Assembly (NCBI GenBank): GCA_947588905.1
Contig: CANQBB010000001.1
Coordinates: 6,789-70,788 of the forward strand
Direction of reading: 5' to 3'
From: an uncultured Clostridia bacterium
Lineage (GTDB): Bacteria; Bacillota; Clostridia; TANB77; UBA1234
Length of the DNA: 64,000 bases
In this document: positions 202-44,954 of the stretch, piece after piece
How the letters are laid out: every line of letters begins with the position of its first letter
Position numbering within the stretch: the stretch's first letter is position 1
Notes under the pieces: model-generated
The model's input: only the letters and a program-made list of their open reading frames with translations
Told to the model about the DNA's origin: nothing
Databases searched by the model: none
Made by a program: the position numbers and the translations under genes

Positions 202-372
202 ACACTTCTCCTTGAAAAATAAGTGTATAACAATTCTTGTAAATTATTATACCATATAAAAATTTAATCTACCACTATTTCAAGAAAACATCTCATTTTT
301 ATCTTTATATTAGTTATATTTTGTTTCTTTACATTTTTATTCATTTTTATAAATATAATTACAAAAAAAATT

Positions 373-4300: not shown

Positions 4301-4909
4301 TTGCTTACTTTCAGAGTTATGTGGCTTTAATAAAAATAGAATTTCTGCTCTAACATCATATGCAACAACTCCATCTATTACATCTTGCATATTCTTTGCC
4401 ACAGTATTATTCCCATTTTTAACTGCTGCTTCTTTTATTATTTCAGCTAATAAATTTATATCATTTTTAGTAACACCAAAATTTTTAACTTTATTATTGT
4501 CAAACCATTTTATTATATGTGAATATGTATTATCTGTAAAAATAGTTTTTCCACTTCTAACATAATCATGTTTTGCATTTGTAGTATTAGTTTTATCAAC
4601 TCCTAAATACATATATTGCATTTTAGTATCAGTTGTTCCATTGCTATTTGTTTTATAAATATGATTTATATAATATTCTTTTGGAACAGCTACATATTTT
4701 TCTGAATTCCAGTCATATACTCTTATAACGTATCTTGTTCCTGTTACATCAAATTTTGCCCAGTACTTCCATCTTCTATCAGCGCCTTCACCTCCAGAAC
4801 TACCTCCTCCACTTGTTCCTCCAACAATATTAGTATCGAACCCATCTGCCTGTACTATCGGTACAAAGATAAATAAAAACGAAAAAATAACTGCTAAAAA
4901 TTTCTTCAT
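1316..4909 (-). CDS. Large secreted protein (1197 aa) of unknown function with a Gly/Ser-rich linker after the signal peptide
   Basis: Long ORF with signal peptide MKKFLAVIFSFLFIFVPIVQA followed by GGTSGGGSSGGEG. I recognise no catalytic motif. It is flanked by SLH-protein genes. Confidence 0.55.
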   Translation of the reverse strand: MKKFLAVIFSFLFIFVPIVQADGFDTNIVGGTSGGGSSGGEGADRRWKYWAKFDVTGTRYVIRVYDWNSEKYVAVPKEYYINHIYKTNSNGTTDTKMQYMYLGVDKTNTTNAKHDYVRSGKTIFTDNTYSHIIKWFDNNKVKNFGVTKNDINLLAEIIKEAAVKNGNNTVAKNMQDVIDGVVAYDVRAEILFLLKPHNSESKQIKRTNIRVPGKGSIEDYKFSYYEHRGKSNSSSTWIKDYFTYNEFKSATYAISSASNKYNMGLIDKMEWMDKVACALFEKDEEYVFVNGVYQCSCDLYKRAGGSWKLTYAKEPWSSNKIFYLNMNKRSSNGSNRMYRYYPPGRCGIPVKWNGETLYVTGGKTYNYKVKASGKNVTLKVYKRVKYSDSVTTETWTNYGNYLGVVTNDPHKAIIYEGWDYITNNLAATLVVAVDKDTGNIIKLNDIPYSEFKNVGEGNYPKTAWNIEGYKYVGLIAKNDLKTPSLPIKVESENKDTTINITAADVSKGAKKQIIFVYEKEKDNFDKEARLSVYKIKDGQNNMLYTGKYLIDETEKKVTIKIYNKTGDLKYQKEVPYDDATGHIVNTNDVENMLNLNLADYNYVGNIIKTNPEYFLSYLGEELNPSSGDLFNLKDIGENKVHIILGYMPTNTDEPKPSIPQIKVSYVDENGNAIPDKPPVITEESVDKDILKKALDLKQDMYMYKGYVYEDSVDEFSNIKIPIQLKGTEDEVTTKFTQGNQRRHIAFVYKKIELKFEIDIEMKVNDLENQYINQKENEDYWVLDRAGKVVLKVKVTGAEGLNILGYTIKLRIPFDTYMNGNFVSAGTINNLNVNDLSEIIVADNLIVPIWVTEKEYILDATIEANVEGFGIVSANKADDVEIIGRLYDFTIINIDDSKVTGDEKWGESLFASEDKEYKANSIPVGQSKNQPDKYNYGVKLGTSFFYNINTKGLKNNAISIVPKFIYVSEDGKTSKEVDIYVNNNGKMVNILSSDLTDIRMKLRDSNILKTSVIQELTRARLLSEINDRYNFSTTTTRSIGKYSNTIISKYLSLPYLNYINEFKEIYGPNAITASKKTENELLTYATHWYGKFSVPASAKIVDKGAPVNSPKYENGYLIVLFKIISLDEAGNGYLSYELPKSKTQWQRENLNKVIDLPKLKENDANKQVIIDNLEGYAPVIIYQVGISIMDNTTSVGTH

Positions 4910-8349: not shown

Positions 8350-10314
8350 CTATTCTAATATTTCGCCACTTGATGCAATAGTTTCAGTAATTGGAATATC
8401 AATGGTTTCAGTGATAGGCATACCTGTTGGGTAATCATAATAATATTTTTCATCATTTCCATAATAATCTTTTATTTCTTCTGGATGTTCATTATAAATT
8501 TTTAATAAAACATCTATTAATCCTTGAGTATTATTTGTATAAAAGTTTAATACACTACCTCCAGTTATATAAGCATATTCTTTTGTATTAGTAACTTCTG
8601 CTTCATAATTTTGTCTAATAAAATCACAAATCTCACGTCTTCCAACATATTCTAATGCACCTATATTATTTTTTATAATATCTGGCACAGACATATTGTA
8701 GAAAAGTATTGTATTTATCCATCGCATATCTTCATATTCTATAGATTCAAAAGCTCTCTCATTAAATTTTTTTGCTGATAGTTTAAATATATTTTCGCTT
8801 AAATTTATTGGATATTCAGCAATTTTTAATTCATGTTTTCTATATTCATAAACAATAATTTTTCTATATCCATAATTATCTTGATTAGATAAATTTTTTA
8901 ATTCATCATAAGTAGTTTCTTTTAATACTCTATTAAGTTCATTTTTTAATTCTTTTTCTTCTTCTTTAGAAAATTCTATTCCACTATATCTAGACCCTAA
9001 AATGATTTTAGCACTATCACTAATAGTTGTTTTATTGATAATTACATCTGTTAGCTCATTTAGCTTTTCATTTCTCATATGAACATAAGACTTGTAAGAT
9101 GAACCATTGAATCTAATTATTCTTATTTTAACTCCTGTTCTATCATTTCTTGAATCATAATTATATTCTGATGACATACTTCCTAATAATTCTTTAATTT
9201 CTTTACTATCCTTTGTTTCAAAATTAAATAATCCATTTGAATCTTCAACCCTTAATTCAGCAATTGAATCACTATCAAAATTTTTACTTATTCCATCATC
9301 AATAGATATGAATAGCATGTATGCACCATATATCGCAATTACTGAGAAAATTAATCCAACTATGTTATCTCTAATTTTCATTCTCTTATTTGTAATTAAA
9401 TCATATAAGAAATAATAAATAGTTATAATTGCAAGAACAATCATGATAATACTAAAATCAGAATCCATTCCAATTCCAACTAAATATGCAACAAATGGTA
9501 CTAGAGTTAATCCTTTTACAACAAAATGAACTATTTTATTTTCAAAAGATTCTCCTGCAACTTCCATTTTTCTCTTATTAAATGCTATTAATCCAATTAT
9601 AAAATATATAATTGAAAGTCCTATCATCTTATACATTGATATTTCATTAAATTCATATTTACCATCATTAGCAACTAAAAATGGTGCCGTATAATTTAAA
9701 CTTTCATCAACTTCTATTACTCTTGAACCGTTTACTAAAACATCATAATCATTACTGCTATTATACAATAATACAAAGAAATGTGTAAAAGGAACTATAA
9801 ATGTTATAAGTAAAGTAAGTGCAATTTGTGTTAAAACATTTCCAGATAAACTCATTGCTAAATTAGCTATTGTAAAAACAAAAATATATGCAATAGTCTG
9901 GAAAATTAAAATATCTAATGCCATACTAACAAAAATCGTACATTCGGTTATCATTCCTAACAGTATTGACAAAAGAAATGTTACTAATTGAAGTAAAACA
10001 ATTAAAACAATTCCACCAATTGTATTAGTGATGAAAATACACTTTCTACTAATCGGCATTGAACCCATAAAATCTACACTTGTTTTCTTAAATACATATC
10101 CAAATAAACAAAATGAAAAAATAAATGGAATTATATATAATCCAAAAATATTAATTAATCCTAGTTCTGCAAACTCAAATACTTCTTGCCCTGCTGATAT
10201 TATCATTAAACTTGTAAAAAGAGGAACTATTATAAAAAATAATATAAGTGCCATTTTAGACTTTTTAAAATTTTGAAGCAAATACTTAAAATTAAACAAT
10301 TTCGTTAAACTCAT
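8350..10314 (-). CDS. ABC-2-type permease with a large extracytoplasmic C-terminal domain
   Basis: Six TM helices in the N-terminal half, then a roughly 330-aa soluble domain. The exact start is uncertain: the ORF-track start at 10353 overlaps the ATPase gene, and a start at MSLTKL (10314) is more plausible. Confidence 0.5.
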   Translation of the reverse strand: MSLTKLFNFKYLLQNFKKSKMALILFFIIVPLFTSLMIISAGQEVFEFAELGLINIFGLYIIPFIFSFCLFGYVFKKTSVDFMGSMPISRKCIFITNTIGGIVLIVLLQLVTFLLSILLGMITECTIFVSMALDILIFQTIAYIFVFTIANLAMSLSGNVLTQIALTLLITFIVPFTHFFVLLYNSSNDYDVLVNGSRVIEVDESLNYTAPFLVANDGKYEFNEISMYKMIGLSIIYFIIGLIAFNKRKMEVAGESFENKIVHFVVKGLTLVPFVAYLVGIGMDSDFSIIMIVLAIITIYYFLYDLITNKRMKIRDNIVGLIFSVIAIYGAYMLFISIDDGISKNFDSDSIAELRVEDSNGLFNFETKDSKEIKELLGSMSSEYNYDSRNDRTGVKIRIIRFNGSSYKSYVHMRNEKLNELTDVIINKTTISDSAKIILGSRYSGIEFSKEEEKELKNELNRVLKETTYDELKNLSNQDNYGYRKIIVYEYRKHELKIAEYPINLSENIFKLSAKKFNERAFESIEYEDMRWINTILFYNMSVPDIIKNNIGALEYVGRREICDFIRQNYEAEVTNTKEYAYITGGSVLNFYTNNTQGLIDVLLKIYNEHPEEIKDYYGNDEKYYYDYPTGMPITETIDIPITETIASSGEILE

Positions 10315-11188
10315 ATCCAAGCACCTCCATCTCATAGATAAATATTTCTTCAAGAGTCAATGGTAAAAAGTCTAAAATAACAGGATTCATTTCTTGCAAT
10401 ACTTTTTCATAGCCTTCTCTTTCGCCTTTCATAATTACAGTTGCAACACTTCCTGTTTTCTTAAAACTCATAACATTAAAGTTTTGAAAATCTTTTTCAG
10501 AGAAATCTCTTCCAAGTGATATTTGAATTTTAAACATATTTGTTTTTAATGAATCTATATCGCTTTCAAATAAAATACCACCTTTATGAAGTAATCCTAA
10601 ATTATCACAAATATCTTCAAGTTCTCTTAGATTATGGCTAGTCATAATAATTGTAGTTTCTTTTTTCTCCATTTGTTCAGCAATAATTTTTTTCATAAAG
10701 TTTCTTATAACAGGATCTATACCATCAAATGTTTCATCAAAGAACATATAATCTGCATTTGTCGCAATTGCACATATCAATGCCGTTTGACGTTTCATAC
10801 CTTTTGAAAAAGTTTGTATTTTTTGTTTTCTATCCAATTTTAATTTGTCAAATAGTTTAAATGCAAATTCTTTATCAAAAGTTTTATACATATTGTTATA
10901 AAAATTAACCATATCATTGATTGTATATCCTTTGAAAAAGAATAAATCATCTGGCACATAAACTAATTTTTGTTTAAACTCTTCGTCATCAGAAATTTCT
11001 TTTCCGTCAATCTCTATGCTCCCTTCATTTTTTTGAAAGATGCCCATTATAATCCTAAGTAGGGTAGATTTTCCTGCTCCATTGGCACCAATTAAACCAT
11101 AAATCGAACCTGTTTTTATGGTACAATTCAATCCTTCTAGCACTTTTTTATCGCCATAGGATTTACTTAGATTAGTGATTTTAATCAT
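10292..11188 (-). CDS. ABC transporter ATP-binding protein
   Basis: Walker A GANGAGKST, Q-loop, and a signature-like motif. ATG at 11186-11188 is preceded by AGGAGGGAG. The ORF-track start at 11218 is less likely. Confidence 0.75.
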   Translation of the reverse strand: MIKITNLSKSYGDKKVLEGLNCTIKTGSIYGLIGANGAGKSTLLRIIMGIFQKNEGSIEIDGKEISDDEEFKQKLVYVPDDLFFFKGYTINDMVNFYNNMYKTFDKEFAFKLFDKLKLDRKQKIQTFSKGMKRQTALICAIATNADYMFFDETFDGIDPVIRNFMKKIIAEQMEKKETTIIMTSHNLRELEDICDNLGLLHKGGILFESDIDSLKTNMFKIQISLGRDFSEKDFQNFNVMSFKKTGSVATVIMKGEREGYEKVLQEMNPVILDFLPLTLEEIFIYEMEVLGYEFNEIV

Positions 11189-14101: not shown

Positions 14102-14317
14102 ATGAACAGTTATTATATTACAATAAAAATCTCAAATAGTCAATACTTATAGCAAATTTTTTTGGTAAAGCATAGATTCATCAAAAAATTATGGCATAAA
14201 ATTGTTGAAGAATTAGGCTTTTAAGTATAAAATTAAATTATAGATAATTACTTAATAAAGCAATAACAGGAGAATGTACAGTTGATTTTTATTACAAAAC
14301 ATATTGGAGATGATAGC

Positions 14318-15616
14318 ATGAAAATTAGTTGTAAGTCTTGTGGTGCAAATCTAAAATTTATTCCAAGCAAACAAATTGCTTGTTGTGAACATTGCGGAAA
14401 TACATATAAACCAGAAGAAATTGAATATGATGACAATATATTTGATAATTATAAAGAATATACTTGTAGTTCATGTGGAGCTAAATTGATTTCATCTGAA
14501 AAGACTGGTATTACTAGTTGTGTATATTGTCAAGGAAAAGAATTTGTAGTAGGAAAAATAAATAAAGATTATATTTTAACAGGTATTATTCCTTTTAGAC
14601 TAGATAAAGAACAGTTTATCAAAAATTATAAAGAGCAAATAGAAAAATTAGATAATGTTAAAAATGATTTTAAGGAAAGTTTAAAAAAAGCTAAAATTCA
14701 AGGAATGTATGTGCCTTATTCTTTTGCTAATAGTTTTTATAGAAAGCAATATGGCGAAGTACTTTTTACTTTATTGGAAGAAATTATACCTTATAATTTC
14801 GAAGATGTGAAAGACTTTAATCCTATATACTTGGATGGCCTAATGGCAGATACAATAGCAGTTAAAAAAGAGGAAAATTTTATAAAAACAAATGATAGCT
14901 CGTTTTATTGGGTACCAGTATGGGTAGCAGAAATAGAATACAAAAATGATATTTATTATATAGTTGCAAATGGGCAAACTTGGGAATTAGCAGGAATGTA
15001 TAAATCTACTGTAAAGAATTTTTTTCTCACTCAAAAGCAAGTAACATTTCAAGAAAAATTATCTTCTATTCATGCAAGAGAATCAATAAAAAGACAGAAA
15101 ATTAAAGAAATAAATAAAAATGCTTTAAAAAATTTAGATACACTGTCAAGTAATGAAGTGTTAAAAATAGAAAGAGAAAAAGAAAAAGAAAGATTGAAAT
15201 ATTTATGTATGAAAGAAGAAGCAGAAAATGCTAAGAAAAAAAATATATACTTATGTCTTAGATGGTTATTTTTTATATTATATATACTAGCACTTCTTGT
15301 ATTTTTTTTATCAAAGCCGGAAGACGAAAATATTCCTGGTTTTATTCTTATTGCTACTTTTGTGTATTTATTATTAAATGCTCTTTTTACATTTCATAAA
15401 GAAAATGAAGATAATACGTATTACGAAAAATTTTTAAGAGCAAATAATGAAATAAAAAATAATGAATATGAAGAAATGAGTAGAGCAGAAAATTCAGATA
15501 TTATCGATAAAATACTACAATTGCCAGAAGATAAAGTATATGAAAATGAAAGAAGTATATATCTTTTTACTAAAAAATATTCTTGGAAAGATAAAAATAA
15601 TAGTATGAAGTCATAA
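14318..15616 (+). CDS. Double zinc-ribbon protein (two CxxC...CxxC pairs), K/E-rich coiled-coil middle, two C-terminal TM helices; function unknown
   Basis: The ATG at 14318 is preceded by a GGAGA RBS, whereas the ORF-track start at 14282 is TTG. Motifs CKSCG..CCEHCG and CSSCG..CVYCQG. TM segments near residues 320-360. Terminator hairpin at 15627-15652. Confidence 0.55.
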   Translation: MKISCKSCGANLKFIPSKQIACCEHCGNTYKPEEIEYDDNIFDNYKEYTCSSCGAKLISSEKTGITSCVYCQGKEFVVGKINKDYILTGIIPFRLDKEQFIKNYKEQIEKLDNVKNDFKESLKKAKIQGMYVPYSFANSFYRKQYGEVLFTLLEEIIPYNFEDVKDFNPIYLDGLMADTIAVKKEENFIKTNDSSFYWVPVWVAEIEYKNDIYYIVANGQTWELAGMYKSTVKNFFLTQKQVTFQEKLSSIHARESIKRQKIKEINKNALKNLDTLSSNEVLKIEREKEKERLKYLCMKEEAENAKKKNIYLCLRWLFFILYILALLVFFLSKPEDENIPGFILIATFVYLLLNALFTFHKENEDNTYYEKFLRANNEIKNNEYEEMSRAENSDIIDKILQLPEDKVYENERSIYLFTKKYSWKDKNNSMKS

Positions 15617-16902: not shown

Positions 16903-18273
16903 TTATCTGGATTCTTTTTCATCTTTTGTAGTATCTTTAGATTCAACTAACCCTTGAAAACTTTCTACATTTTGTTCAATTCCCTCAATCAATTGTTCTT
17001 TAGAAAACAAAACTTGTTCTTTTTGACTTATAACATCCAAACAATTTGTATCAAATATTGCCAATGAAGGTAACTCCAGTCCACAATCAATATATGATTT
17101 ATTTATCATTCCACTAAAATATGAAGTAATATTATATGAAATTCTATTCATTCTATCTTCCACACTTGAAACTTCTCCTTTAATTTTCTCTTCACTATAC
17201 AATTTTAAAAATTCCATTCCTGATAGTTCATAAGATGCTCTTTGAGGCCAACTTTCTTCAGTAAAAATAGTAAGATCATCAATTAATATGTTATTTTGTC
17301 TTACTTTATCAACAAATTCAGAAAAATCTTTAAGTAACTCATTTTTCATAAGCGAGAAAAATATTTCATTTTCAAATACATCTCTTATATTTTTGGATTC
17401 ATCATATAAAGATAATAATTTTTCTTTTTCCTCATTAGATGCTTCAACATGTTCTAAAATATGCATAACACTTTCTTTTGAGGAATACTTTTTTAAATTT
17501 ATATATGGTAAAGATTTAATATGTGGATACATTCTTGAGGCATCTATATTTTTATCTGAACAATGATAAAGTTTCATTAATATAGGATTTAACATTCGTA
17601 CATCGATAGGATTTAATTTGCCTTCTTCCAAATTATCTGAACCACACAAGCACTCTGTAATTAATTTTGTAAATTTTTCATATTCGTGCAGTTGATTTTC
17701 CCAAACTTGCGAATTGTGAGGATTCAAATAATAGAAAGATCCATATTCTTGAAATTTTTGAGCAATATTTGAAATAGTAGGAAAAGCATATGGATTAAAA
17801 TTGTTATTAGCAAAAAGTTCAGGGTAAAATAATTTAAAAATCGATTCAAGTCCATCATCAACATCTAAAATTACACCCTTCGCATCTGGCATATTAAATT
17901 TCTTTTTTACTTCTTCTAATAATTTATCTCTTCCTTCTTTTTCTGAGCTTTCCCACTTCATTTCCATTTCATGTTTAACAGGTTCAAACACACTCATAAT
18001 TTCATTTGGTTTTACAATTATAATATCTTTTAATTTTGCAGAAATAACATTCGTAGTTCCATCTTCTTTACAAAATTTTGAAATTAAGTCTGGTGCTCTT
18101 TCTACTAAAAACCTATGCCATCCACAAGTCATTCCATCTGAACTTTCAGGTAAACTAAACCACATTGCATTCTTTGGCTTAAAAAATATATGTCCTTTAT
18201 ATTGATATTCACAATTTTCAAATTCTTTAGTAGATAAACAAACGAATTCTGTTTTATCATCAATTCTTGGCAT
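16903..18273 (-). CDS. Uncharacterised 456-aa cytoplasmic protein; sole sizeable cargo of the tRNA-Gln-associated islet
   Basis: ATG with GGAGG RBS. No TM helix or signal peptide. Cys/His-containing N-terminus (CLSTKEFENCEY...CGWHRF). I recognise no family. Confidence 0.55.
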   Translation of the reverse strand: MPRIDDKTEFVCLSTKEFENCEYQYKGHIFFKPKNAMWFSLPESSDGMTCGWHRFLVERAPDLISKFCKEDGTTNVISAKLKDIIIVKPNEIMSVFEPVKHEMEMKWESSEKEGRDKLLEEVKKKFNMPDAKGVILDVDDGLESIFKLFYPELFANNNFNPYAFPTISNIAQKFQEYGSFYYLNPHNSQVWENQLHEYEKFTKLITECLCGSDNLEEGKLNPIDVRMLNPILMKLYHCSDKNIDASRMYPHIKSLPYINLKKYSSKESVMHILEHVEASNEEKEKLLSLYDESKNIRDVFENEIFFSLMKNELLKDFSEFVDKVRQNNILIDDLTIFTEESWPQRASYELSGMEFLKLYSEEKIKGEVSSVEDRMNRISYNITSYFSGMINKSYIDCGLELPSLAIFDTNCLDVISQKEQVLFSKEQLIEGIEQNVESFQGLVESKDTTKDEKESR

Positions 18274-19594: not shown

Positions 19595-20326
19595 ATGTTA
19601 GAATTTATAAATGTTACTAAACAATTCGATACTGTTACAGCCGTAAAAAATGTGTCTTTTAGCTTAGATGCTAGTAAAGTTCTTGGCATCGTTGGCAGAA
19701 ATGGAGCTGGAAAATCTACTATATTTAGAATGATTTTGAACCTTATAGAACCAACATCTGGTGAAATTAAATTTAATGGTGAAAAAATCAGCAATGATGT
19801 ATTAAATCAATTTGGCTATTTACCTGAAGAAGGTAGCATAATGCCTCAATATACAGTTTTAGATATATGTGAATATTATGGAGCATTAAAACTAATGACT
19901 AAAGATGAGGTATATAATAATTTAACTGCTTGGCTTAATGAATTTAATATTTTAGAATATCTTAATGTTAAAGTAAAAAAGCTTTCTAAAGGGAATAGAC
20001 AAAAAGTACAATTTATTGTATCAGTATTGCATAATCCAGATTTTATTATACTAGATGAACCATTTTCTGGTTTAGATCCTATAAGTGTCGAAGAGCTTGA
20101 GAAAGCAATCTTAAAATTAAAAGAGCAAGGTAAGACAATCATATTTTCTTCTCATATTATGAGTCATGTAGAAAATATTTGTGATGAAATTTTAATGATA
20201 AATAAAGGCGAATCTTTGTTGCAAGGCAATTTAAAAGATATAATTTCAAATTATAAAATAAACGAAAAGCCTGCTAATTCTTTAAATGATATTTTTATAG
20301 ATAAGGTGGGTGAAATTGATGAATAA
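19595..20326 (+). CDS. ABC transporter ATP-binding protein
   Basis: Walker A GRNGAGKST, signature LSKGNRQK, Walker B ILDEP. AAGGAG RBS. Confidence 0.8.
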   Translation: MLEFINVTKQFDTVTAVKNVSFSLDASKVLGIVGRNGAGKSTIFRMILNLIEPTSGEIKFNGEKISNDVLNQFGYLPEEGSIMPQYTVLDICEYYGALKLMTKDEVYNNLTAWLNEFNILEYLNVKVKKLSKGNRQKVQFIVSVLHNPDFIILDEPFSGLDPISVEELEKAILKLKEQGKTIIFSSHIMSHVENICDEILMINKGESLLQGNLKDIISNYKINEKPANSLNDIFIDKVGEIDE

Positions 20327-22514
20327 TGATAAGGTTAAAGAAATAATAAAATTTTCTTTTATTAAAAATATACAAAACAAATGGTTTATTATTTTTAATA
20401 TTTTAACTTTAATTAGTATAGTTCTAATGGTAAATTGGAGTTCTATATCTAATTTATTCAAACCTAAAGATGAATTAAAAGTATTTGATATAGTTTTGAT
20501 AGATAATAGTAATCTAGTTTATGATAGTTTTGTCGAAAAATTTTCTGATGATAAAAATTATAAGCTAACTAAATCTACAGAAAATACTTATACAGCAGAA
20601 AATATACCTGATGATTTAGTTATTTTAGAAGTCACACCTGATGAAGAAAAAATGTTCACCACATCAGTTATTTCAAAAGAAGGTATCGAAACAACAAAAT
20701 ATAATCCTATCAAAGACACTCTTTTAGATGTTAGAAATAAACTATTTGCAGAAAAATATAATGTTACTGATGAAGAATTAGATATATTTCAAAGTGATTT
20801 AGAAATAAATAGAATTATGCTTTCTGTCAATGCAGAAAATTCTACCACGAAAGAATTTATAAAATTATTTTCATCTGCTTTCACTTATATAATTACAGTT
20901 TTTATATTTTCTAAAATGGCAAATGAAATTGCTAGCGAAAAGCAATCGAAATCAACTGAATATATTTTAACAACCGTATCATCAAAAGAATATTTATTTG
21001 CAAAAATATTTAGTAACATCGCTATTTTGCTTGTTCAAGGTCTTTTCTTAATTGTATATTATTATATTGCTGCAATTATTTTTAATTTAATAAATATTGC
21101 TTCAACTGATTTAAGCCTTTCAACTGTAACATTTTCAAGCATATTAAGTAAAGATATTGTATATTATATTTTAGCTTTGATTATTTATAATGTATTAAAT
21201 TTAATATTACTTTGCATTATTCAAGCAACCGTTTCTTCAAAAGTTAATTCAACTACTGAAGCAGGTAATACTGTATCTTTACTCATATTTGTAATATTAC
21301 TTGCATATGTTGCAACTGTTTATATTATAACACCATATACAAAAATGAATTTATGGGTATATATTGTGTCTTGCATCCCAGTATTATCAGCATATTTTGT
21401 ACCAGCCATGATGGTCATTGGTCAGGCTACAATATGGCAAATTATAATATCTTTAGCTATATTGATTGCATCAATACCTATATTATTTCATTATAGTGCT
21501 AAAACATTTAAAAATGGAATTTTAGATTATACTAAAGTCAAAATCAAAAATAAGAAAGAAAAAACTTTAGAAGAACAACAGAAAATATATTTAACAAAAC
21601 GAAAAATGCAAAATGTAGGTTTTGTTATAGGCATTGCAATAATAATTTATTTTGGTTTACAAACAGTTTTAACATTATTGTGTGGAATAGTACTACCAAC
21701 CTTATTTAGCAATTTATCTGAAACAGATATAACTTTAATAATGCAAATTATTTTACAAGTAATCTCATTAGGAGTATCTGCATTTTGGATATTATCTTAT
21801 GTTGAAAATAAAAAAGAAAAACGCAAAAAAGTAAATTTGAAAAATAAAATCTGTATAATTTTAATTGCTTTATTACTAATATTTGGTTTGCAATATTTAC
21901 TTAACTATCTTCTTTATCCTGCCATAGGTTTAGATTATTCTACCACTGATGTATTTGATATAAGTTCAAATTCAAGTTTACTAAGTAAAATTATATTCAT
22001 ATTAGCCATTAGTGTAACACCTGCAATATTCGAAGAATTATTCTTTAGAAAAGCTGTTATATCATTTACAAAACAATATGGAACTACCTTTGCTTTAATC
22101 TTTTCAGCCTTATTATTTGGAATGCTTCATATGAATTTATCACAATTTTTATTTGCTTTCATAATAGGAATTGTTTTTGGAATGATTTACTTGTACACAA
22201 ACGATATAAAAATTACAATGTTTATTCACTTTATAAACAACGGTCTTGCCGCCATTGAATTGATATTACCAGAATCATATGGAATTATAATAGTTCTTAT
22301 ACTATTAGTATGTTTAGTACTAGGACTTGCTTTAGCTCTAATTATGCTATCTAAGAAAAGATATGGAGAAAAGTTCAAAAATATTTGTCTTAAAAAAGTT
22401 TCTTTATCATCTTTTAACTCAAAATATAAATATATATTTACTGATTATACATTTGATATTTCAATGATTTTAGTTGTTCTTATGAGCATACTAACTGAAA
22501 ATATGTTAAGATAA
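20319..22514 (+). CDS. ABC-2-type permease fused to a C-terminal CPBP (CAAX protease / Abi) intramembrane domain
   Basis: The ATG at 20319 follows an AAGGTGGG RBS and overlaps the ATPase stop. The N-terminal permease half has about 6 TM helices. The C-terminal half carries CPBP motifs FEELFFRKAV, FGMLH and HFINN. Confidence 0.6.
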   Translation: MNNDKVKEIIKFSFIKNIQNKWFIIFNILTLISIVLMVNWSSISNLFKPKDELKVFDIVLIDNSNLVYDSFVEKFSDDKNYKLTKSTENTYTAENIPDDLVILEVTPDEEKMFTTSVISKEGIETTKYNPIKDTLLDVRNKLFAEKYNVTDEELDIFQSDLEINRIMLSVNAENSTTKEFIKLFSSAFTYIITVFIFSKMANEIASEKQSKSTEYILTTVSSKEYLFAKIFSNIAILLVQGLFLIVYYYIAAIIFNLINIASTDLSLSTVTFSSILSKDIVYYILALIIYNVLNLILLCIIQATVSSKVNSTTEAGNTVSLLIFVILLAYVATVYIITPYTKMNLWVYIVSCIPVLSAYFVPAMMVIGQATIWQIIISLAILIASIPILFHYSAKTFKNGILDYTKVKIKNKKEKTLEEQQKIYLTKRKMQNVGFVIGIAIIIYFGLQTVLTLLCGIVLPTLFSNLSETDITLIMQIILQVISLGVSAFWILSYVENKKEKRKKVNLKNKICIILIALLLIFGLQYLLNYLLYPAIGLDYSTTDVFDISSNSSLLSKIIFILAISVTPAIFEELFFRKAVISFTKQYGTTFALIFSALLFGMLHMNLSQFLFAFIIGIVFGMIYLYTNDIKITMFIHFINNGLAAIELILPESYGIIIVLILLVCLVLGLALALIMLSKKRYGEKFKNICLKKVSLSSFNSKYKYIFTDYTFDISMILVVLMSILTENMLR

Positions 22515-22563
22515 AAAATACAGCATTAAAATAGCTATGTTAAAACTATTTTAATGCTGTTTC

Positions 22564-23823
22564 TTATATTTCTTTTATAACATCTTCCAATCCTTTAATC
22601 AAATTTTTCCCTGTACTAATATCATTTTGATAATGTTCCATTAAATATGGCTCTATATTATATTTTATTGTCATCTTTATATCTTGATTGGTCATTGGTT
22701 TGCAAAAATAAGAATGCCCTATTTTTGCATTATCTTCTAGATTTTTGTTTATACCCACTATTTCATTTATTACTTTAGTCATAGAATCATTTTTTAAATA
22801 AAATTGTTTAAATTTTTCGTTTTCAAACATTGGTAATATTGTGTAAAAACAAAATCTTCTTCTAAATGCATAATCTTTTTCAAAGCCACTATCAAAATTA
22901 TTCATTGTACCTATTATATAAATATTTTCAGGAACATAAAATCTCTCTCTTGAACATGCTAGTTCTATATAATTTTCTTTTCCTCTTTTATCTAACTCTA
23001 TTAAAGAAAATGCCTCTCCAAAAATTTTAGAAATATTTCCCCTATTTATTTCATCAATAATTACAAAATACTTATTTTCAGGGTCATTTCTAGCCTTATT
23101 ACATATTCTCTTGAAGCAACCTCTTTTATATTTATATATACCTATATCATCAGGTCTATACCCTTCCATAAATTCATCACTAGAGTACGTTTCATGAAAT
23201 TGTACACAAAGCATTTTTTCTTCATCTTTTTGTCCTAAAATAGAATATGCCATTCTTTTAGCAATATATGTTTTACCAACACCTGGTACACCTTGTAATA
23301 TAACATTTTTTCTAGTTAATATTAGAGAGCGAAGTTCATCATAATCTTCTTCTTTAAAGAAAACTTCTTCTAAAAACTTTTCTTTATCATAACTTTCATA
23401 ATATCTATATTGCTTTTGAGGATTTAATTCTCTTATCATGCTATATATTACTTCATATTCTCTTTGAGATAATTTAAATAAAGTTCCTTGAGTATATCTA
23501 AAAACTTCTAAATTTGCTAGTTCTATGTGACGTTCTATATTATATCTACTTACAGTATCAGTAACTCCCTCTACTTTTTCAAACATAACTTTGTTATTAT
23601 TTATTTCTTCAACAACCTTACATAATCCTATAATTTCATTACTTGGTTCCAGTTCATAAGCTATAACTAAAGAATCTTTCTTTATTTCTGCAAAATTTTT
23701 ATATAATGTTCTTGGAGTACCATCTTCATTTAATGCTGTATAATAAAATCTATCTCCTACATCTAAATCTCTAAATCGTATCATTTTAGGGTTTATGCTA
23801 AGCCACCAATAATTATTTATCAT
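22564..23823 (-). CDS. McrB-family AAA+ GTPase with an N-terminal EVE/PUA-like domain; no McrC partner
   Basis: P-loop LQGVPGVGKTYIAKRMA, FHETYSSDEF, DEINRGNISK, GTMNNFDSG, FRRRF. The N-terminal 140 aa (YWWLSINPKMIRF...) is EVE-like. It is flanked by a + strand gene, with a terminator upstream. Confidence 0.65.
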   Translation of the reverse strand: MINNYWWLSINPKMIRFRDLDVGDRFYYTALNEDGTPRTLYKNFAEIKKDSLVIAYELEPSNEIIGLCKVVEEINNNKVMFEKVEGVTDTVSRYNIERHIELANLEVFRYTQGTLFKLSQREYEVIYSMIRELNPQKQYRYYESYDKEKFLEEVFFKEEDYDELRSLILTRKNVILQGVPGVGKTYIAKRMAYSILGQKDEEKMLCVQFHETYSSDEFMEGYRPDDIGIYKYKRGCFKRICNKARNDPENKYFVIIDEINRGNISKIFGEAFSLIELDKRGKENYIELACSRERFYVPENIYIIGTMNNFDSGFEKDYAFRRRFCFYTILPMFENEKFKQFYLKNDSMTKVINEIVGINKNLEDNAKIGHSYFCKPMTNQDIKMTIKYNIEPYLMEHYQNDISTGKNLIKGLEDVIKEI

Positions 23824-23849
23824 ATAAATTCCTTCTTTTCTTTAAGTGG

Positions 23850-23878
23850 ATAATATCACGAAATACTACAATTTTCAA
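23850..23878 (-). promoter_or_regulatory. Sigma-A-type promoter for the McrB-like gene (TTGAAA, 17-bp spacer, TATTAT)
   Basis: Minus-strand reading ttgaaaattgtagtatttcgtgatattat, about 25 bp upstream of the RBS and ATG at 23823. Confidence 0.4.
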
Positions 23879-23891
23879 TGATTTTTAATTC

Positions 23892-23929
23892 AAAAATGAG
23901 GTTGTATTATTTTACAACCTCATTTTTTA
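23892..23929 (-). terminator. Rho-independent terminator (atgaggttgta...tacaacctcat) after the pilin-like gene
   Basis: 11-bp perfect stem and a T-run in the minus direction. It separates the pilin-like gene from the McrB-like gene. Confidence 0.55.
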
Positions 23930-23947: not shown

Positions 23948-24883
23948 TTATTGATTAAAACTAGCTTCATATTTACTAACCCATATTCCAGTCAAATCTA
24001 ATACATTATCTCCAGTACCATATTGGAATGAACTTGGAAGGGTATATGTATCTCCATTAGCACTTGTCGTATCATTAGTTAAATTACTAAAAATTATTTT
24101 TGCACCAGTAGTTCCAACACTTGAAGTTGTATATCTAGGTATCCAAACATATGCACTACCCTCGGTAGTAACTTTTTTACCTACTAATTCTGAAAGTGAT
24201 GCTTTTCTAACTGCAGCATTATCAAATCCTTCAACTGCTAAATCATCTTTAAGCATAACATTTGCCCAAGCCATTTGCTCTTGTGAATAATCATACCAAT
24301 CAGTATCATCTGCACTTGTAACAACCCATTCACTTCCACTTAATTTAACAGGTACCATACCATCACTTAAAACTGGTTTATTAACTTTTTTAGCATCATC
24401 ATATTCAACATCTGATAGCACGTCTTTTCCTCCCCCCATATCTTTCTTTAAGTCATTTAGGGAATAATACACTTTATCTTGATACAATACACCGCTTATA
24501 GATACAACATTACCTTGCTCATAGTTTATAAGATAAGCTGCATTTACATTGTCTAGGCCTAATTGATCAAAATCACTTTCGTTGTCTAATAAATACCAAC
24601 CATCTGCACCAGAATATGTTTGCTTAGTACTTCCAACTCCTACTTCCATTGGTTCGTAGTCTAATCTACCAACATATGCATAAAAATCAGGGTTAATTTT
24701 ATGTACTAATGTCCTATTTACTACAGCATCGATAATTTCATGAACTTCATATGCAGTTTTAGTTTCCATAGCAACATCAGTATTTCTATTTAAACCATAA
24801 TATATTGTTACCGCTGCAAGTATAATAATAACTATTATTGTTATAATTAAAGCAACAATCGTTATACCTTTTTTATTTTCCAT
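23948..24883 (-). CDS. Degenerate type-IV-pilin-like protein (pilin-type N-terminal helix lacking Phe1 and Glu5) with a roughly 270-aa extracellular domain
   Basis: N-terminus MENKKGITIVALIITIIVIIILAAV follows the prepilin pattern KKGFTLVELL..I.I.GILAA, but with F changed to I and E changed to A. AGGAGG RBS. Confidence 0.45.
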   Translation of the reverse strand: MENKKGITIVALIITIIVIIILAAVTIYYGLNRNTDVAMETKTAYEVHEIIDAVVNRTLVHKINPDFYAYVGRLDYEPMEVGVGSTKQTYSGADGWYLLDNESDFDQLGLDNVNAAYLINYEQGNVVSISGVLYQDKVYYSLNDLKKDMGGGKDVLSDVEYDDAKKVNKPVLSDGMVPVKLSGSEWVVTSADDTDWYDYSQEQMAWANVMLKDDLAVEGFDNAAVRKASLSELVGKKVTTEGSAYVWIPRYTTSSVGTTGAKIIFSNLTNDTTSANGDTYTLPSSFQYGTGDNVLDLTGIWVSKYEASFNQ

Positions 24884-24941
24884 ATTATCCTCCTATACTT
24901 ACTATTCTTTAATTGCATTTTACTATAATCATTTTAAAAAA

Positions 24942-26690
24942 TCAATATTTAATGTTAAAATAATCATACTTAATTGCTAAATCATCTAATATTATTTTTT
25001 CTCTATCTGAGCAAGTAGCTATAATTATTTGCCTATTAGTATCCTTTAGGCAAGAAAGTATGTTTTTCAGTCTTACATCATCAAAATAAGCAAAACATTC
25101 ATCTAAAATAATAGGCAATTCTCCCAAATTTTTAGAGATTCCAAATCTAAATCCTAAATAAAATTGATCAATTGTACCAATACTTAATTTACTAACAGGG
25201 ACTAATTCCCCAAGTGAATTTTCTGCTAAGATTCCAGCTTCATTGTTATAATAAATTTTTTCATATCTATTATTTGTTGTTTCTTTTATTGATTGTTTAA
25301 TATTTTCTTCCATTTTGGGAATTACATCTTGTTTTAGTTCTTCATATGCTTCACTTAATTTATCAATAGCAATATTTATAACTTTTCTTCTAGTACTTAG
25401 CACATTCTTTTTTTCTTCAAGAGATGCTAATTGTTCTTCAACTTCTGATAATCTATCTATATTTTCTCTTAAACTTCCCTCTTCTATTTTTATTTTATGT
25501 CCATCCAAAATTAAATCATTCTTCTTTTTTTCTAATCCACTTATTAAAGATTTTAATTCTGATATCTTTCGTTCTATCAATGTTTCTTTTATTCCTTTTT
25601 GAATTAGCTTATCTAATTCTTTTTGTTCTTTTTTATTAACTTCTTCTTTTATAACTGTAAAATCTAAAACATGATTATCTTTTGAATCAATTTTATTACT
25701 ACATTTTAAAATTATAATTGCCAAAATAGCAAATACTATTTCTAAAATAATCCAATAATAATTTTTATAGTAGCACAATATTCCAGCAGTCAAAATTGCA
25801 AATAAAGAAATTATACTTAAAAATATTTTGAATTGTTTTTTTGATTTAGAAATTTTTTCTTGTTTTTCTTTTTCATTCACTTTTAAAGTTAATTCATATG
25901 TTTTTTCTTTTTCATTCAACAAATCGCTATATTTTTCTTTTATTTCTAAGATTTCCTTTATCTCTTCCATATCAGAATTTATCTTTTTTAATTGTTCTTC
26001 TATTCCCTTAGAACTTTCATCTAAAATATCTTTTTTATCTCTATTGTTTAGAAGGTTTAATCTTTGCTGTTTCTTTTCTAATATTTCTCTATCAATTAAA
26101 TTGATTGGCTTATTTTGAGATCTGTCAGTTCCTATCTCATCTAAAACCTTTTTTTGAAGTTTAGTTTTAATCTTCTCAAAAGATATATTTTCTTGACCAC
26201 TTTGAAGTATATTAGAAAGTTTTTGAACTATATTTTTTTGCGATTGCATATCAACAGAAATTTCTTTTTGATTTATAAGCAAGGTATTAACAAATGTTTC
26301 TTCATCAATACCCAAATGAGTCATTCCAAGCTCTACACCTCTTGTTTTATCTTTATTAAAGGTGTTTGTTATATCGTTTCCATTACTGTCATAAACTTTA
26401 CAATTATTTCTATTAAAATCTCTAAAAGCAGTATATGTTTTTCCATCAATTTCATAATCTATTTTTCCGCTAAAATCAATATCTTTCCATGGTTTAAATC
26501 TTTCAAATTCAGAAAATTCATTACCTGCTTTATTTCTATTTATACCATAAAAAATGCATTTAATAAAATTTATAATTGTTGATTTACCAGACTCATTTTC
26601 TCCATATAATAAGTTAAGTCCATTATTAAATTCTATAGTTTTATTTTCTAAATTACCAAAGCCATTGATTTGTATTTTTTTTATAATCAT
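24942..26690 (-). CDS. YhaN-like SbcC/Rad50-family ATPase with a coiled coil interrupted by a two-helix membrane hairpin
   Basis: N-terminal P-loop LLYGENESGKST. Long coiled coil. TM pair FKIFLSIISLFAILTAGILCYY / WIILEIVFAILAIIIL in the middle. C-terminal signature and D-loop region (ILDECFAYFDD). Its start overlaps the yhaO-like stop. Confidence 0.6.
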   Translation of the reverse strand: MIIKKIQINGFGNLENKTIEFNNGLNLLYGENESGKSTIINFIKCIFYGINRNKAGNEFSEFERFKPWKDIDFSGKIDYEIDGKTYTAFRDFNRNNCKVYDSNGNDITNTFNKDKTRGVELGMTHLGIDEETFVNTLLINQKEISVDMQSQKNIVQKLSNILQSGQENISFEKIKTKLQKKVLDEIGTDRSQNKPINLIDREILEKKQQRLNLLNNRDKKDILDESSKGIEEQLKKINSDMEEIKEILEIKEKYSDLLNEKEKTYELTLKVNEKEKQEKISKSKKQFKIFLSIISLFAILTAGILCYYKNYYWIILEIVFAILAIIILKCSNKIDSKDNHVLDFTVIKEEVNKKEQKELDKLIQKGIKETLIERKISELKSLISGLEKKKNDLILDGHKIKIEEGSLRENIDRLSEVEEQLASLEEKKNVLSTRRKVINIAIDKLSEAYEELKQDVIPKMEENIKQSIKETTNNRYEKIYYNNEAGILAENSLGELVPVSKLSIGTIDQFYLGFRFGISKNLGELPIILDECFAYFDDVRLKNILSCLKDTNRQIIIATCSDREKIILDDLAIKYDYFNIKY

Positions 26691-26699
26691 ATAGCACCT

Positions 26700-27746
26700 C
26701 TATTTCATCATTTGATATATTAAATCAACCGTTTTCATTGTTTCTTGCTTTTCTAATTCAGACATATTTTCCATTTCATCCAAAATCTTTTTTGTAAATA
26801 ATCCTTTTAGATTTTTCATTTGCTTTATATTTTCAAAATCATATGGCAATGTTGTACAATCTTTTATTTCACAAATATTTTTATTTTCTTCAGTTATACA
26901 CTCTATCAATTCATCTATATTAAAATTTCTAGTTCCACAAATTTCAATTTTATAAAATTTATTATCTTCAATCTTTAAACTTTCCATTACCTCATGTATG
27001 TTTGAATAATTAGAAATATCTAATTTTATTTTTTCAAATTCTTTATAGTCAAGAGGAACAAATTCTAAATCACATTTTTCCTTCGTTATCTCTCCTTTTA
27101 CGAAACCATGTTTTCCTTCTTCATCAAATCCACAAGATATTAAACTTCCAGGATAAATTATTCTAGAATCGTCAACATTTTTTTCATGTATATGTCCAAG
27201 TGCTACGTAGTCAAATTTATTTAAATCTTTTTCTTTAATGTCATGATACTTTCCATCTGCACCATTTAAAGTGCCATGTGTTACAAGAATATTTATTTTA
27301 TCTTCATTTTCAATTTTTATATTTGCTATTTCATTTGAAGAAAATTCATAATCATTAAATCCAATACCATAAATATCTACATCATCAAAACTAATCATTC
27401 CATATTCACTATTAAAAATAGTTACATTACTTGGCCAATCAAATGTGCTATATGGAGAATTTTTTATAAGTGGATCATGATTTCCTGGTGCAATAAAAAT
27501 ATTAGTATCACTAATCAATCCAAAATTAGAAATAATATATTCAATTGTACTTTTTTCAACATACTTTTGCTCAAATAAATCTCCCGAAATAAACAAAAAC
27601 TCAACTTTTTCTTTTTTTACAAATTGAATAACATCTCTAAATGCTTGCTTTTGTTCTATTCTTCTTTTCTTTATTAGTTCTCTATTTCCTTTAAATGAAA
27701 GCATTGGCATATCAAAATGCACATCGGCTATGTGTACAAACTTCAT
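26700..27746 (-). CDS. YhaO-like SbcD/Mre11-family metallophosphoesterase (nuclease subunit)
   Basis: Motifs MKFVHIADVHFD, GDLFE, GNHD, GHIH. 348 aa. AGGAGGA RBS. Confidence 0.7.
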   Translation of the reverse strand: MKFVHIADVHFDMPMLSFKGNRELIKKRRIEQKQAFRDVIQFVKKEKVEFLFISGDLFEQKYVEKSTIEYIISNFGLISDTNIFIAPGNHDPLIKNSPYSTFDWPSNVTIFNSEYGMISFDDVDIYGIGFNDYEFSSNEIANIKIENEDKINILVTHGTLNGADGKYHDIKEKDLNKFDYVALGHIHEKNVDDSRIIYPGSLISCGFDEEGKHGFVKGEITKEKCDLEFVPLDYKEFEKIKLDISNYSNIHEVMESLKIEDNKFYKIEICGTRNFNIDELIECITEENKNICEIKDCTTLPYDFENIKQMKNLKGLFTKKILDEMENMSELEKQETMKTVDLIYQMMK

Positions 27747-27827
27747 TATATCCTCCTAGTTTCTTTTTAAGTATAATAGTCATTTCAAACAAATTTTTAT
27801 TTCGTTCAAAATGACTATTATTAAACA

Positions 27828-42944: not shown

Positions 42945-43015
42945 CAACTTTTTATTATAAAAAGATAACGTATCAACTTGGTGGAAGGCACGTTATCTCC
43001 TTATAAACAAAAATA

Positions 43016-43050
43016 AAACTCTAGCAACTTATTGATATTGCTAGAGTTTC
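43016..43050 (-). terminator. Rho-independent terminator after tRNA-Arg (aaactctagcaa...ttgctagagttt)
   Basis: 12-bp perfect inverted repeat plus a T-run. Same family as the 13977-14012 hairpin. Confidence 0.5.
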
Positions 43051-43063
43051 TTTATTTTTGTAT

Positions 43064-43140
<77 letters not shown>

Positions 43141-43275
43141 ATGCCGATAACACAAAATATAATACCATCATTTAAACTAATTGTCAATATTATTCCAAAC
43201 ATTTCTTACTAAATAAAATCTGTCTCTTCTTTATATAAAATATACTAAAAAAGAGTGGCAAAAGCCACTCTTTTT

Positions 43276-43989: not shown

Positions 43990-44138
43990 GAAACTAACCC
44001 TCCCAATTTTTTATTGCCAAATTATTGTATCATAGTTGTTTTGTTATGTCAACTGTATTTTGATAAGCTCTACCTCAAAAAAATAATTTTCTAACTATAC
44101 AAAAAAGAGGGGGCGGTTTTCTCACCGCCCCCAAGAAA

Positions 44139-44879: not shown

Positions 44880-44954
44880 TATAAAACCTCCTTTAATCGT
44901 CACTCTTAGTTTCCCAAATATTATTATACCACATTTTGTAAACTAGCTCAACTA

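What the first reader, a model, noticed from the sequence alone, without database searches (positions are those of the whole stretch)
22564..23878. Orphan McrB-family GTPase with N-terminal EVE-like domain, own promoter, no McrC
All McrB GTPase motifs are present (GVPGVGKT, DEINRGN, GTMN..D, RRRF), plus an N-terminal roughly 140-aa YWW..INP EVE/PUA-like module typical of modified-base readers. However, a terminator lies upstream and the downstream gene is on the opposite strand, so no McrC-type PD-(D/E)xK endonuclease is encoded alongside. Either its effector is supplied in trans (perhaps the nearby YhaO/YhaN nuclease), or this is a decayed restriction system.
Basis: partly seen in the sequence, partly recalled or inferred. 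Interest (0 to 1): 0.6.

Follow-up and report, generated by a model that had tools for sequence, protein, structure and literature searches.

The report
McrC-free EVE–McrB GTPase lineage
This gene encodes an intact "reader plus motor" half of a McrBC restriction enzyme. It belongs to a whole branch of gut Clostridia that lost the DNA-cutting partner long ago yet keeps the gene under strong selection, so it probably does something other than classical restriction.

Summary

It is not a decayed gene. It belongs to a monophyletic clade of ~418-aa proteins (117 clusters at 90% identity; 27 distinct genomic loci, all gut/rumen Clostridia MAGs). None of these loci has McrC within the flanks held (at most 10 kb each side). 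All 58 sampled outgroup relatives have McrC directly downstream.

The orphans evolve as slowly as the neighbouring recG (dN/dS ~0.02). The one segment that has lost constraint is loop L3, the element McrC contacts: MNTADRSL is invariant in the McrC-linked proteins and degenerate in the orphans.

The neighbouring Mre11/Rad50-like genes do not co-occur with the gene in any relative. Best reading: a McrC-independent modified-base reader and GTPase motor with a non-nucleolytic role. The actual role is unknown. It is a new variant of a known kind; the nearest precedent is S. aureus PcdA.

The parts
22564..23823 (-). CDS of the 419-aa orphan EVE-McrB-like GTPase (stop codon 22564-22566)
   Evidence: ORF list. 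Identical protein P0001 in the public collection. Pfam AAA_5 2.6e-19. NCBIfam McrB 4.6e-58.
23419..23823 (-). N-terminal EVE (PUA-like) domain, aa 1-135; predicted reader of a modified base
22588..23403 (-). McrB-type AAA+ GTPase module including the C-terminal lid, aa 141-412
   Evidence: Profile against PDB 6hz4/6ut6 (E. coli McrB): E ~1e-81 over aa 141-412. Foldseek 6ut6 E 1e-22. Precomputed PF28529 McrB_lid.
23269..23292 (-). Walker A, GVPGVGKT (aa 178-185). The following Tyr186 sits at the position of EcMcrB Phe209, which stacks on the guanine base.
   Evidence: The role of the stacking residue is from PMC7680126.
23050..23055 (-). Walker B Asp257-Glu258 (EcMcrB D279/E280). The following N260/R261 (Ec N282/R283) are also conserved.
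   Evidence: Invariant in both the orphan and the McrC-linked sets.
22873..22902 (-). Loop L3 / McrB signature loop, aa 308-317 (NNFDSGFEKD). It is equivalent to EcMcrB 333-343 (NTADRSLAVVD), the element contacted and remodelled by McrC. Asn308 and Asp311 are kept; the rest is degenerate in this clade.
   Evidence: Alignment and entropy scan. The role of L3 is from PMC6624300 and PMC7680126.
22852..22863 (-). RRRF, aa 321-324: trans-acting sensor-2-like arginine and arginine finger (EcMcrB R348/R349)
   Evidence: Invariant in both sets. Present in 116/117 short forms.
23850..23878 (-). Sigma-70-type promoter-like site, TTGAAA-17 nt-TATTAT with an upstream TG (extended -10). A ribosome-binding site AAGAAGG follows at 23837..23831.
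   Evidence: Consensus match only (10/12); function not shown.
23892..23927 (-). Hairpin (15-bp stem) with flanking A/T runs after the upstream 311-aa gene. It is terminator-like in both directions and isolates the gene from upstream transcription.
22520..22560 (-). Intrinsic-terminator-like hairpin (17-bp stem followed by ATTTTTT) directly after the stop codon, between convergent genes

Best explanation
The gene encodes a functional, McrC-independent member of the McrB GTPase family. It belongs to an old branch, found in gut and rumen Clostridia, that lost the nuclease partner and was kept for another job.

Proposed mechanism:
- The N-terminal EVE domain captures a flipped-out modified base. 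The closest structural relatives read 5mC/5hmC in DNA; modified RNA is not excluded.
- The McrB AAA+ module assembles into a hexameric ring that binds GTP and hydrolyses it with its own basal machinery: Walker A K184, Walker B D257/E258, N308/D311 of the NxxD element, and R322/R323 acting in trans.
- No McrC stalk is inserted. Loop L3, which McrC normally grips, is no longer constrained. The arginine equivalent to EcMcrB R337, whose removal raises basal GTPase activity in E. coli, is gone.
- The output is therefore non-nucleolytic: GTP-driven clamping, translocation or remodelling on modified nucleic acid, or recruitment of other factors.

Shown here: domain identity, intact motifs, clade-wide absence of McrC from the neighbourhood, purifying selection, and relaxation specific to L3.

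Inferred, not shown: hexamer formation, GTP use, the ligand, and the cellular role.

For: 2. Clade-wide loss of McrC. All 27 distinct short-form loci lack McrC in the flanks held (at most 10 kb each side; some contigs are only 1.5-3 kb). All 58 sampled outgroup relatives have a 343-376-aa gene directly downstream. Four of these were confirmed as Pfam McrBC PF10117, and the closest long form, P0118, also has it.

3. Monophyly. The orphan clade is recovered in 100/100 NJ bootstraps and nests among McrC-linked McrBs.

4. Selection. dN/dS is 0.023 in the two least saturated pairs, against 0.03-0.04 for the adjacent recG. In 10 species where the gene sits beside recG, its pairwise identity (76-97%) is on average slightly higher than RecG's (72-94%).

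5. Motifs in 117 short forms: Walker A 116, Walker B 117, RRRF 116.

6. Loop L3.
- MNTADRSL is essentially invariant in the McrC-linked proteins. In the orphans only M-N and mostly D remain: 0/113 have TADRS and 4/113 have DR.
- Entropy over L3 is 1.34 bits in orphans against 0.29 in McrC-linked proteins. The whole GTPase domain shows the opposite trend (0.87 against 1.45).
- The window 308-315 is the top-ranked 8-column window in the domain for orphan-specific relaxation.
- L3 (Ec 333-343) is the McrC contact (PMC6624300). Ec R337A raises basal GTPase about threefold (PMC7680126).

7. The guanine-sandwiching residues are conserved: Y186 (Ec F209) and H370 (Tg H501).

8. The gene is a monocistronic unit with its own promoter and terminators.

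9. Precedent. S. aureus PcdA is a McrC-less EVE-McrB protein co-opted for cell-division plane selection (PMC10602043).
Against: - Only the window (64 kb) and limited flanks of the relatives (at most 10 kb each side) were inspected, not whole genomes. All relatives are MAGs, so an unlinked McrC or another effector cannot be excluded directly.
- L3 relaxation is indirect evidence. It could also reflect adaptation to a different partner.
- No biochemical property (hexamer formation, GTP versus ATP use, ligand) was tested.
- The full-length AF2 model has low-confidence loops (aa 216-230 and 274-281).
- One sub-branch (L007-L010) carries the gene on an integrase/Rep element, and genomic positions differ between sub-lineages. 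Both are compatible with a mobile defence gene.
- The tree is distance-based only.
Confidence: 0.6

Rival explanations
1. It is still the specificity and motor subunit of a restriction or defence system, with the nuclease encoded elsewhere. Candidates are an unlinked McrC, the nearby Mre11/Rad50-like (YhaO/YhaN-type) pair, or another effector recruited in trans.
For: All catalytic motifs and the EVE pocket are intact, as expected for an active restriction subunit. Nearly all known EVE-McrB proteins act with a nuclease (PMC7641849; PMC11090510). In L007-L010 the gene lies on an integrase/Rep element. Whole genomes were not searched.
Against: No McrC in 64 kb of window or in the flanks of 27 relatives' loci. 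The Mre11/Rad50-like genes are found next to the gene only in this window. No neighbouring gene family is shared across the clade. The McrC-contact loop L3 has lost its invariant sequence. In 10 species the gene lies beside recG/dnaG/rpmB with RecG-like divergence, unlike a typical defence island.
Confidence: 0.22
2. It is a domesticated cell-biology factor in the manner of S. aureus PcdA: an EVE-McrB protein that no longer reads nucleic acid but organises a cytoskeletal or chromosome-associated process such as division-site selection.
For: PcdA shows that such co-option of a McrC-less EVE-McrB protein occurs in Firmicutes. The gene sits in housekeeping neighbourhoods: recG, dnaG-sigA, rpmB, smc, thrS, yhbY, purA, thyX. 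It is under strong purifying selection.
Against: PcdA has two EVE domains, a degraded Walker A, no Walker B glutamate, one arginine finger lost and no lid. This protein has one EVE domain and every one of those elements intact. PcdA is reported only in Staphylococcus-related cocci. No division genes are linked here.
Confidence: 0.1
3. It is a decaying remnant of a McrBC operon that has lost McrC and is drifting toward a pseudogene.
For: McrC is absent and the canonical MNxxDR signature is imperfect in this protein (MNNFDS).
Against: dN/dS is ~0.02. The reading frame is full length in the 117 short-form clusters, with only a few listed shorter, and Walker A/B and RRRF are intact in 116-117 of them. 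The clade is monophyletic and spans down to 48% identity. The gene has its own promoter, ribosome-binding site and terminator.
Confidence: 0.02

Closest known systems
E. coli McrB (GTPase subunit of the McrBC type IV restriction enzyme; PDB 6hz4, 6ut6)
   Same: The GTPase module aligns end to end, lid included (E ~1e-81, ~38% identity). Shared elements: Walker A and B; N282/R283, E298 and R348/R349 equivalents; the sensor-1-like Asn and Asp of NxxD; the guanine-stacking aromatic residue and His. The layout, an N-terminal specificity domain before the motor, is the same.
   Different: The N-terminal domain is EVE, not DUF3578. There is no McrC in the operon or the window. Loop L3 (Ec 333-343) is not conserved and lacks R337/S338/L339. 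The gene is monocistronic.
EVE-McrB fusions of canonical McrBC operons (Bell et al. 2020, PMC7641849; loci L034-L092 and L093 here)
   Same: The same EVE-plus-McrB arrangement. The whole query (aa 4-400) aligns to the C-terminal ~400 residues of many of these proteins at 31-47% identity. The orphan clade nests among them in the tree.
   Different: Most of those proteins are 600-1100 aa with extra N-terminal domains (for example DUF8426). All keep MNTADRSL and are followed by McrC. The orphan clade is ~418 aa, has one EVE domain, no McrC and a degenerate L3.
S. aureus PcdA (McrB-family protein co-opted for division-plane selection; PMC10602043)
   Same: Derived from EVE-McrB, lacks McrC, chromosomal, found in Firmicutes. 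It is the precedent for a non-restriction role.
   Different: PcdA has two EVE domains, degraded Walker A and B, one arginine lost, no lid and very weak NTPase activity. The protein here has every catalytic element and the lid intact. The two represent independent McrC losses in different lineages.
Stand-alone EVE / THYN1-type readers and EVE-HNH enzymes (2ar1, 2gbs, 5j3e, VcaM4I 6yex)
   Different: Sequence identity is only 14-18%. The ligand of this domain is untested.

Membership tests
McrB GTPase family (AAA+, AAA_5 branch) | Sequence and structural homology of the AAA+ module, including the McrB-type lid | tested here: met
   NCBIfam McrB E 4.6e-58 (197 bits, below the equivalog cut-off of 637). 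PDB profile against 6hz4/6ut6 E ~1e-81 over aa 141-412. Foldseek E 1e-22. PF28529 McrB_lid.
McrB GTPase family (AAA+, AAA_5 branch) | Walker A, Walker B (DE), and the tandem trans-acting arginines (RRRF) that replace sensor 2 and the arginine finger | tested here: met
   GVPGVGKT, IDEIN and RRRF are present and invariant in the clade.
McrB GTPase family (AAA+, AAA_5 branch) | Signature/consensus loop MNxxDR(S) | tested here: not met
   This protein has MNNFDS: Asn and Asp are kept, Arg and Ser are lost. In the clade 96/113 keep NxxD, 4/113 keep DR and 0/113 keep TADRS. Among McrC-linked relatives, 58/59 or 59/59 keep each of T, D and R, 57/59 keep A and 56/59 keep S.
McrB GTPase family (AAA+, AAA_5 branch) | GTP (not ATP) specificity and hexamer formation | not testable with these tools
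   Only indirect evidence. The guanine-stacking positions (Y186, H370) and the linker segment aligned to Ec D176-F178 are conserved.
McrBC type IV restriction system | A McrC subunit (DUF2357 N-terminal domain plus PD-(D/E)xK nuclease) encoded with McrB | tested here: not met
   No hit to a McrC HMM in the 64-kb window or in 27 short-form loci. The same HMM finds McrC next to every outgroup relative. Whole genomes were not searched.
EVE / PUA-like modified-base reader superfamily | EVE beta-barrel fold | tested here: met
EVE / PUA-like modified-base reader superfamily | Pfam PF01878 match above the gathering threshold | tested here: inconclusive
   18.7 bits against a cut-off of 23 for this sequence. 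The homologous segment of long-form relatives scores 26.4-28.6 bits, and two clade members carry a precomputed PF01878 hit.
EVE / PUA-like modified-base reader superfamily | Binding of a modified base in DNA or RNA | not testable with these tools
   Inferred from fold neighbours only (THYN1 with 5mC DNA; VcaM4I).
PcdA (Staphylococcaceae division-plane factor) | Two tandem EVE domains, degenerate Walker A/B, a lost lid, and restriction to Staphylococcus-related cocci | tested here: not met
   One EVE domain, intact motifs and a lid are present. The hosts are uncultured gut/rumen Clostridia. PcdA features are from PMC10602043.
CoCoNuT / LlaJI-LlaI-BsuMI-type McrBC variants | Coiled-coil insertions with a CnuC/McrC partner and accessory genes, or a three-gene R1/R2/nuclease layout with a methyltransferase | tested here: not met
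   No coiled-coil segment in the model. No partner genes: the gene is monocistronic between terminators. Only weak PADLOC hits to the shared AAA+ region.

The most novel reading that the evidence does not exclude
It would act on the cell's own nucleic acid (for example in chromosome maintenance, replication/repair or RNA surveillance), not as an anti-phage nuclease. This would be an independent and mechanistically different parallel to PcdA, and a bacterial analogue of eukaryotic epigenetic reader ATPases.
Probability: 0.3. Interest if true: 0.75.

Novelty: new variant of a known kind. Interest (0 to 1): 0.55.

Why it matters
McrB is understood almost entirely as the motor of a nuclease complex whose GTPase is switched on by McrC.

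The branch offers a natural 'McrC-independent' McrB for asking what the ring does to nucleic acid without a nuclease. It also suggests that modified-base reading in gut Clostridia may feed into something other than restriction.

Practically, defence-system annotators should not score such solo McrB genes as type IV restriction systems.

Tried and rejected
- **Plasmid origin.** A megablast of 20-28 kb against PLSDB found no match. The rest of the window is chromosomal: ddl, murF, dnaJ-like, SLH, ypeB, dacB-like.
- **YhaO/YhaN-type partner.** I searched the window's Mre11-like, Rad50-like, 311-aa and VirD4-like proteins against all ORFs of 92 related loci. Only the ABC-transporter pair recurs, in L041 and L023.
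- **A hidden conserved partner.** Clustering all genes within 5 kb of the 27 short-form genes gave only sub-lineage synteny blocks and no clade-wide family.
- **Candidate neighbours in sub-lineages,** each confined to its sub-lineage or otherwise rejected:
  - a PF05014 DNPH1-like gene, in 3 close relatives only;
  - a 95-aa YhbY-like gene and a patatin-like gene;
  - a 531-aa ORF upstream in L007-L010;
  - a 315-aa ORF downstream in L094, which scores 3 bits against the McrC HMM and has no homologues in the other loci.
- **Contaminated McrC HMM.** The first McrC HMM was contaminated by two unrelated downstream ORFs and gave a false hit in L023. I rebuilt it without them.
- **PADLOC.** Only weak hits to generic 'REase_II' models over the AAA+ region; not informative.
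- **Literature.** Searches found no description of this McrC-less clade.

Full report
**What is there**

The finding's interval covers one gene on the minus strand, 22564..23823, encoding 419 aa. On the coding strand the order of features is as follows:
- The upstream 311-aa gene ends at 23948.
- A 15-bp hairpin flanked by A/T runs lies at 23927..23892.
- A promoter-like site follows: TTGAAA at 23878..23873, a 17-nt spacer, then TG-n-TATTAT ending at 23850.
- A ribosome-binding site AAGAAGG lies at 23837..23831, and the ATG at 23823.
- A 17-bp hairpin plus T-run at 22560..22520 follows the stop codon.
- The next gene, an ABC permease/CPBP fusion, is convergent.

The promoter and terminators are consensus matches only, not demonstrated signals.

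**Domain identity**

The C-terminal two-thirds is a McrB GTPase:
- Pfam AAA_5, E 2.6e-19.
- NCBIfam McrB, E 4.6e-58 over aa 120-394. This is below that model's equivalog cut-off.
- A profile of the family matches E. coli McrB structures 6hz4/6ut6 with E ~1e-81 over aa 141-412, that is, through the lid.
- The AlphaFold2 model (pLDDT 80.6) hits 6ut6 with Foldseek E 1e-22.

Walker A (GVPGVGKT), Walker B (IDEIN) and the N282/R283, E298 and R348/R349 equivalents are all present. So are the two residues that sandwich the guanine base: Y186, equivalent to Ec F209, and H370, equivalent to Tg H501 (roles from PMC7680126).

**The gene belongs to a clade that lacks McrC as a whole**

A protein search returned 117 clusters (at 90% identity) of ~418-aa proteins at 48-79% identity, followed by an abrupt switch to 600-670-aa proteins at 47% identity or less. 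A scan of one genome per GTDB species gave 80 loci. Other look-ups added more.

The short forms come only from uncultured gut and rumen Clostridia MAGs. In all 27 distinct short-form loci there is no McrC in the flanks held, which reach at most 10 kb each side (some contigs are only 1.5-3 kb).

In all 58 sampled outgroup relatives a 343-376-aa gene starts within a few bases of the McrB stop codon, or slightly further. Most of these relatives are 600-1100 aa with extra N-terminal domains. They come from many phyla. Four of the downstream genes were confirmed as Pfam McrBC PF10117, as was the one next to the closest long form, P0118. An HMM built from 49 of them recovers every outgroup locus and nothing in the short-form loci or in the 64-kb window.

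On the GTPase domain the short forms are monophyletic in 100/100 NJ bootstraps and nest among McrC-linked proteins. McrC, together with the extra N-terminal domains, was therefore lost once, at the base of this clade.

**It is not decaying**

- In 10 species the gene lies between recG and rpmB, next to dnaG-sigA. There its pairwise identity (76-97%) is on average slightly higher than that of the adjacent RecG (72-94%).
- dN/dS is 0.023 in the two least saturated pairs, against 0.03-0.04 for recG.
- Of 117 short forms, 116 keep Walker A, 117 keep Walker B and 116 keep RRRF.
- The EVE core residues W6, W7, N11, P12, Y28, E57, K83, E106 and F116 are invariant.

**The one thing that has decayed is the McrC docking loop**

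I compared the 27 orphans with the 58 McrC-linked proteins column by column. The orphans are the less variable set over the GTPase domain as a whole (mean entropy 0.87 against 1.45 bits), as expected for a narrower clade.

Over aa 308-317 the relation is reversed (1.34 against 0.29 bits). An unbiased sliding-window scan ranks 308-315 first in the whole domain for orphan-specific relaxation.

This segment is EcMcrB 333-343 (NTADRSLAVVD), loop L3. Nirwan et al. show that the McrC helix bundle contacts and remodels it (PMC6624300). Niu et al. show that McrC's Arg/Lys finger repositions the Asn and Asp of this loop to stimulate hydrolysis (PMC7680126).

The McrC-linked proteins keep MNTADRSL almost without exception. 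In the orphans:
- the Asn is invariant and the Asp is mostly kept; both are needed for basal hydrolysis in TgMcrB;
- T, A, R, S and L are free to vary;
- 0 of 113 have TADRS and only 4 of 113 have DR.

In E. coli, R337A raises basal GTPase activity about threefold.

Further orphan-specific relaxations lie at aa 212, 215 and 265 and in the lid (362-371, 394-400). I could not map these onto the McrC interface.

This pattern is what one expects if the basal GTPase is still used but McrC no longer binds. It argues against an unlinked McrC.

**No substitute partner is visible**

These, the 311-aa membrane protein and the VirD4-like gene have no homologues in any related locus.

Clustering all genes within 5 kb of the 27 orphans finds only sub-lineage synteny blocks:
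- recG/dnaG/rpmB;
- thioredoxin/DsbD with purA and thyX;
- patatin-like with yhbY-like;
- a DNPH1-like gene in the three closest relatives.

No family is shared clade-wide. One sub-branch (L007-L010) carries the gene on an integrase/Rep element.

**Interpretation**

The best-supported reading is a McrC-independent EVE-McrB protein: a modified-base reader fused to a self-sufficient GTPase ring, with a non-nucleolytic output.

Which output is not known. The candidates are clamping or translocation on modified foreign DNA as a nuclease-free defence, and a host function on the cell's own modified DNA or RNA. I rate these about equally.

The closest precedent is S. aureus PcdA, a McrC-less EVE-EVE-McrB protein co-opted for division-plane choice (PMC10602043). 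PcdA has eroded Walker motifs and no lid, whereas this clade is catalytically intact. It is therefore an independent and different outcome of McrC loss.

The McrBC census and the EVE survey deal with paired systems and do not describe this clade. Literature searches found nothing else.

**Limits**

- All relatives are MAGs and only limited flanks were seen; whole-genome absence of McrC is untested.
- The tree is distance-based.
- The structures are predictions.
- No biochemical property was measured.

**Verdict**

I class this as a new variant of a known kind, of moderate interest.

Noticed in passing
window 23948-29795 (-): Four co-directional genes: a VirD4/TraG-type coupling protein (655 aa), a Mre11/SbcD-like phosphoesterase (348 aa), a Rad50/SbcC-like ATPase with a central transmembrane hairpin (582 aa) and a membrane-anchored 311-aa protein. 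The setting is otherwise chromosomal and no other type IV secretion genes were recognised. The block is absent from all relatives' loci.
   Followed up: partly
window 19595-22514 (+): An ABC ATPase plus a fused ABC-2 permease/CPBP (Rce1-like) intramembrane protease. The same pair lies near the orphan mcrB-like gene in relatives L041 and L023, but in a different orientation.
   Followed up: partly
L012:6610-7092, L013:9341-9844, L041:9437-9853: In the three closest relatives a PF05014 nucleoside 2-deoxyribosyltransferase/DNPH1-like gene lies divergently just upstream of the orphan gene. It is missing from the window.
   Followed up: partly
L007:6385-10046 (also L008-L010): In one sub-branch the orphan gene sits on an element with a tyrosine integrase and a Rep protein. 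A 531-aa lipoprotein-like ORF lies 20 bp upstream and a 200-aa membrane ORF lies downstream; neither has a Pfam hit.
   Followed up: no
window 43000-45000: G+C rises to 0.40-0.45 against ~0.27 elsewhere. The stretch covers two SH3_3-domain proteins next to tRNA-Arg(tct).
   Followed up: no
window 54725-63934 (-): A giant 3069-aa ORF with DUF285 and LRR repeats, presumably a surface protein.
   Followed up: no
window 1316-4909, 8350-10353, 14282-15616, 16903-18273: Four large ORFs (1197, 667, 444 and 456 aa) with no Pfam match at the thresholds used.
   Followed up: no
L062:292-1245, L081:6575-7549: In the NJ tree, the nearest outgroup to the orphan clade consists of two ~320-aa McrB proteins that appear to lack any N-terminal reader domain, yet keep MNTADR and a downstream McrC.
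   Followed up: no
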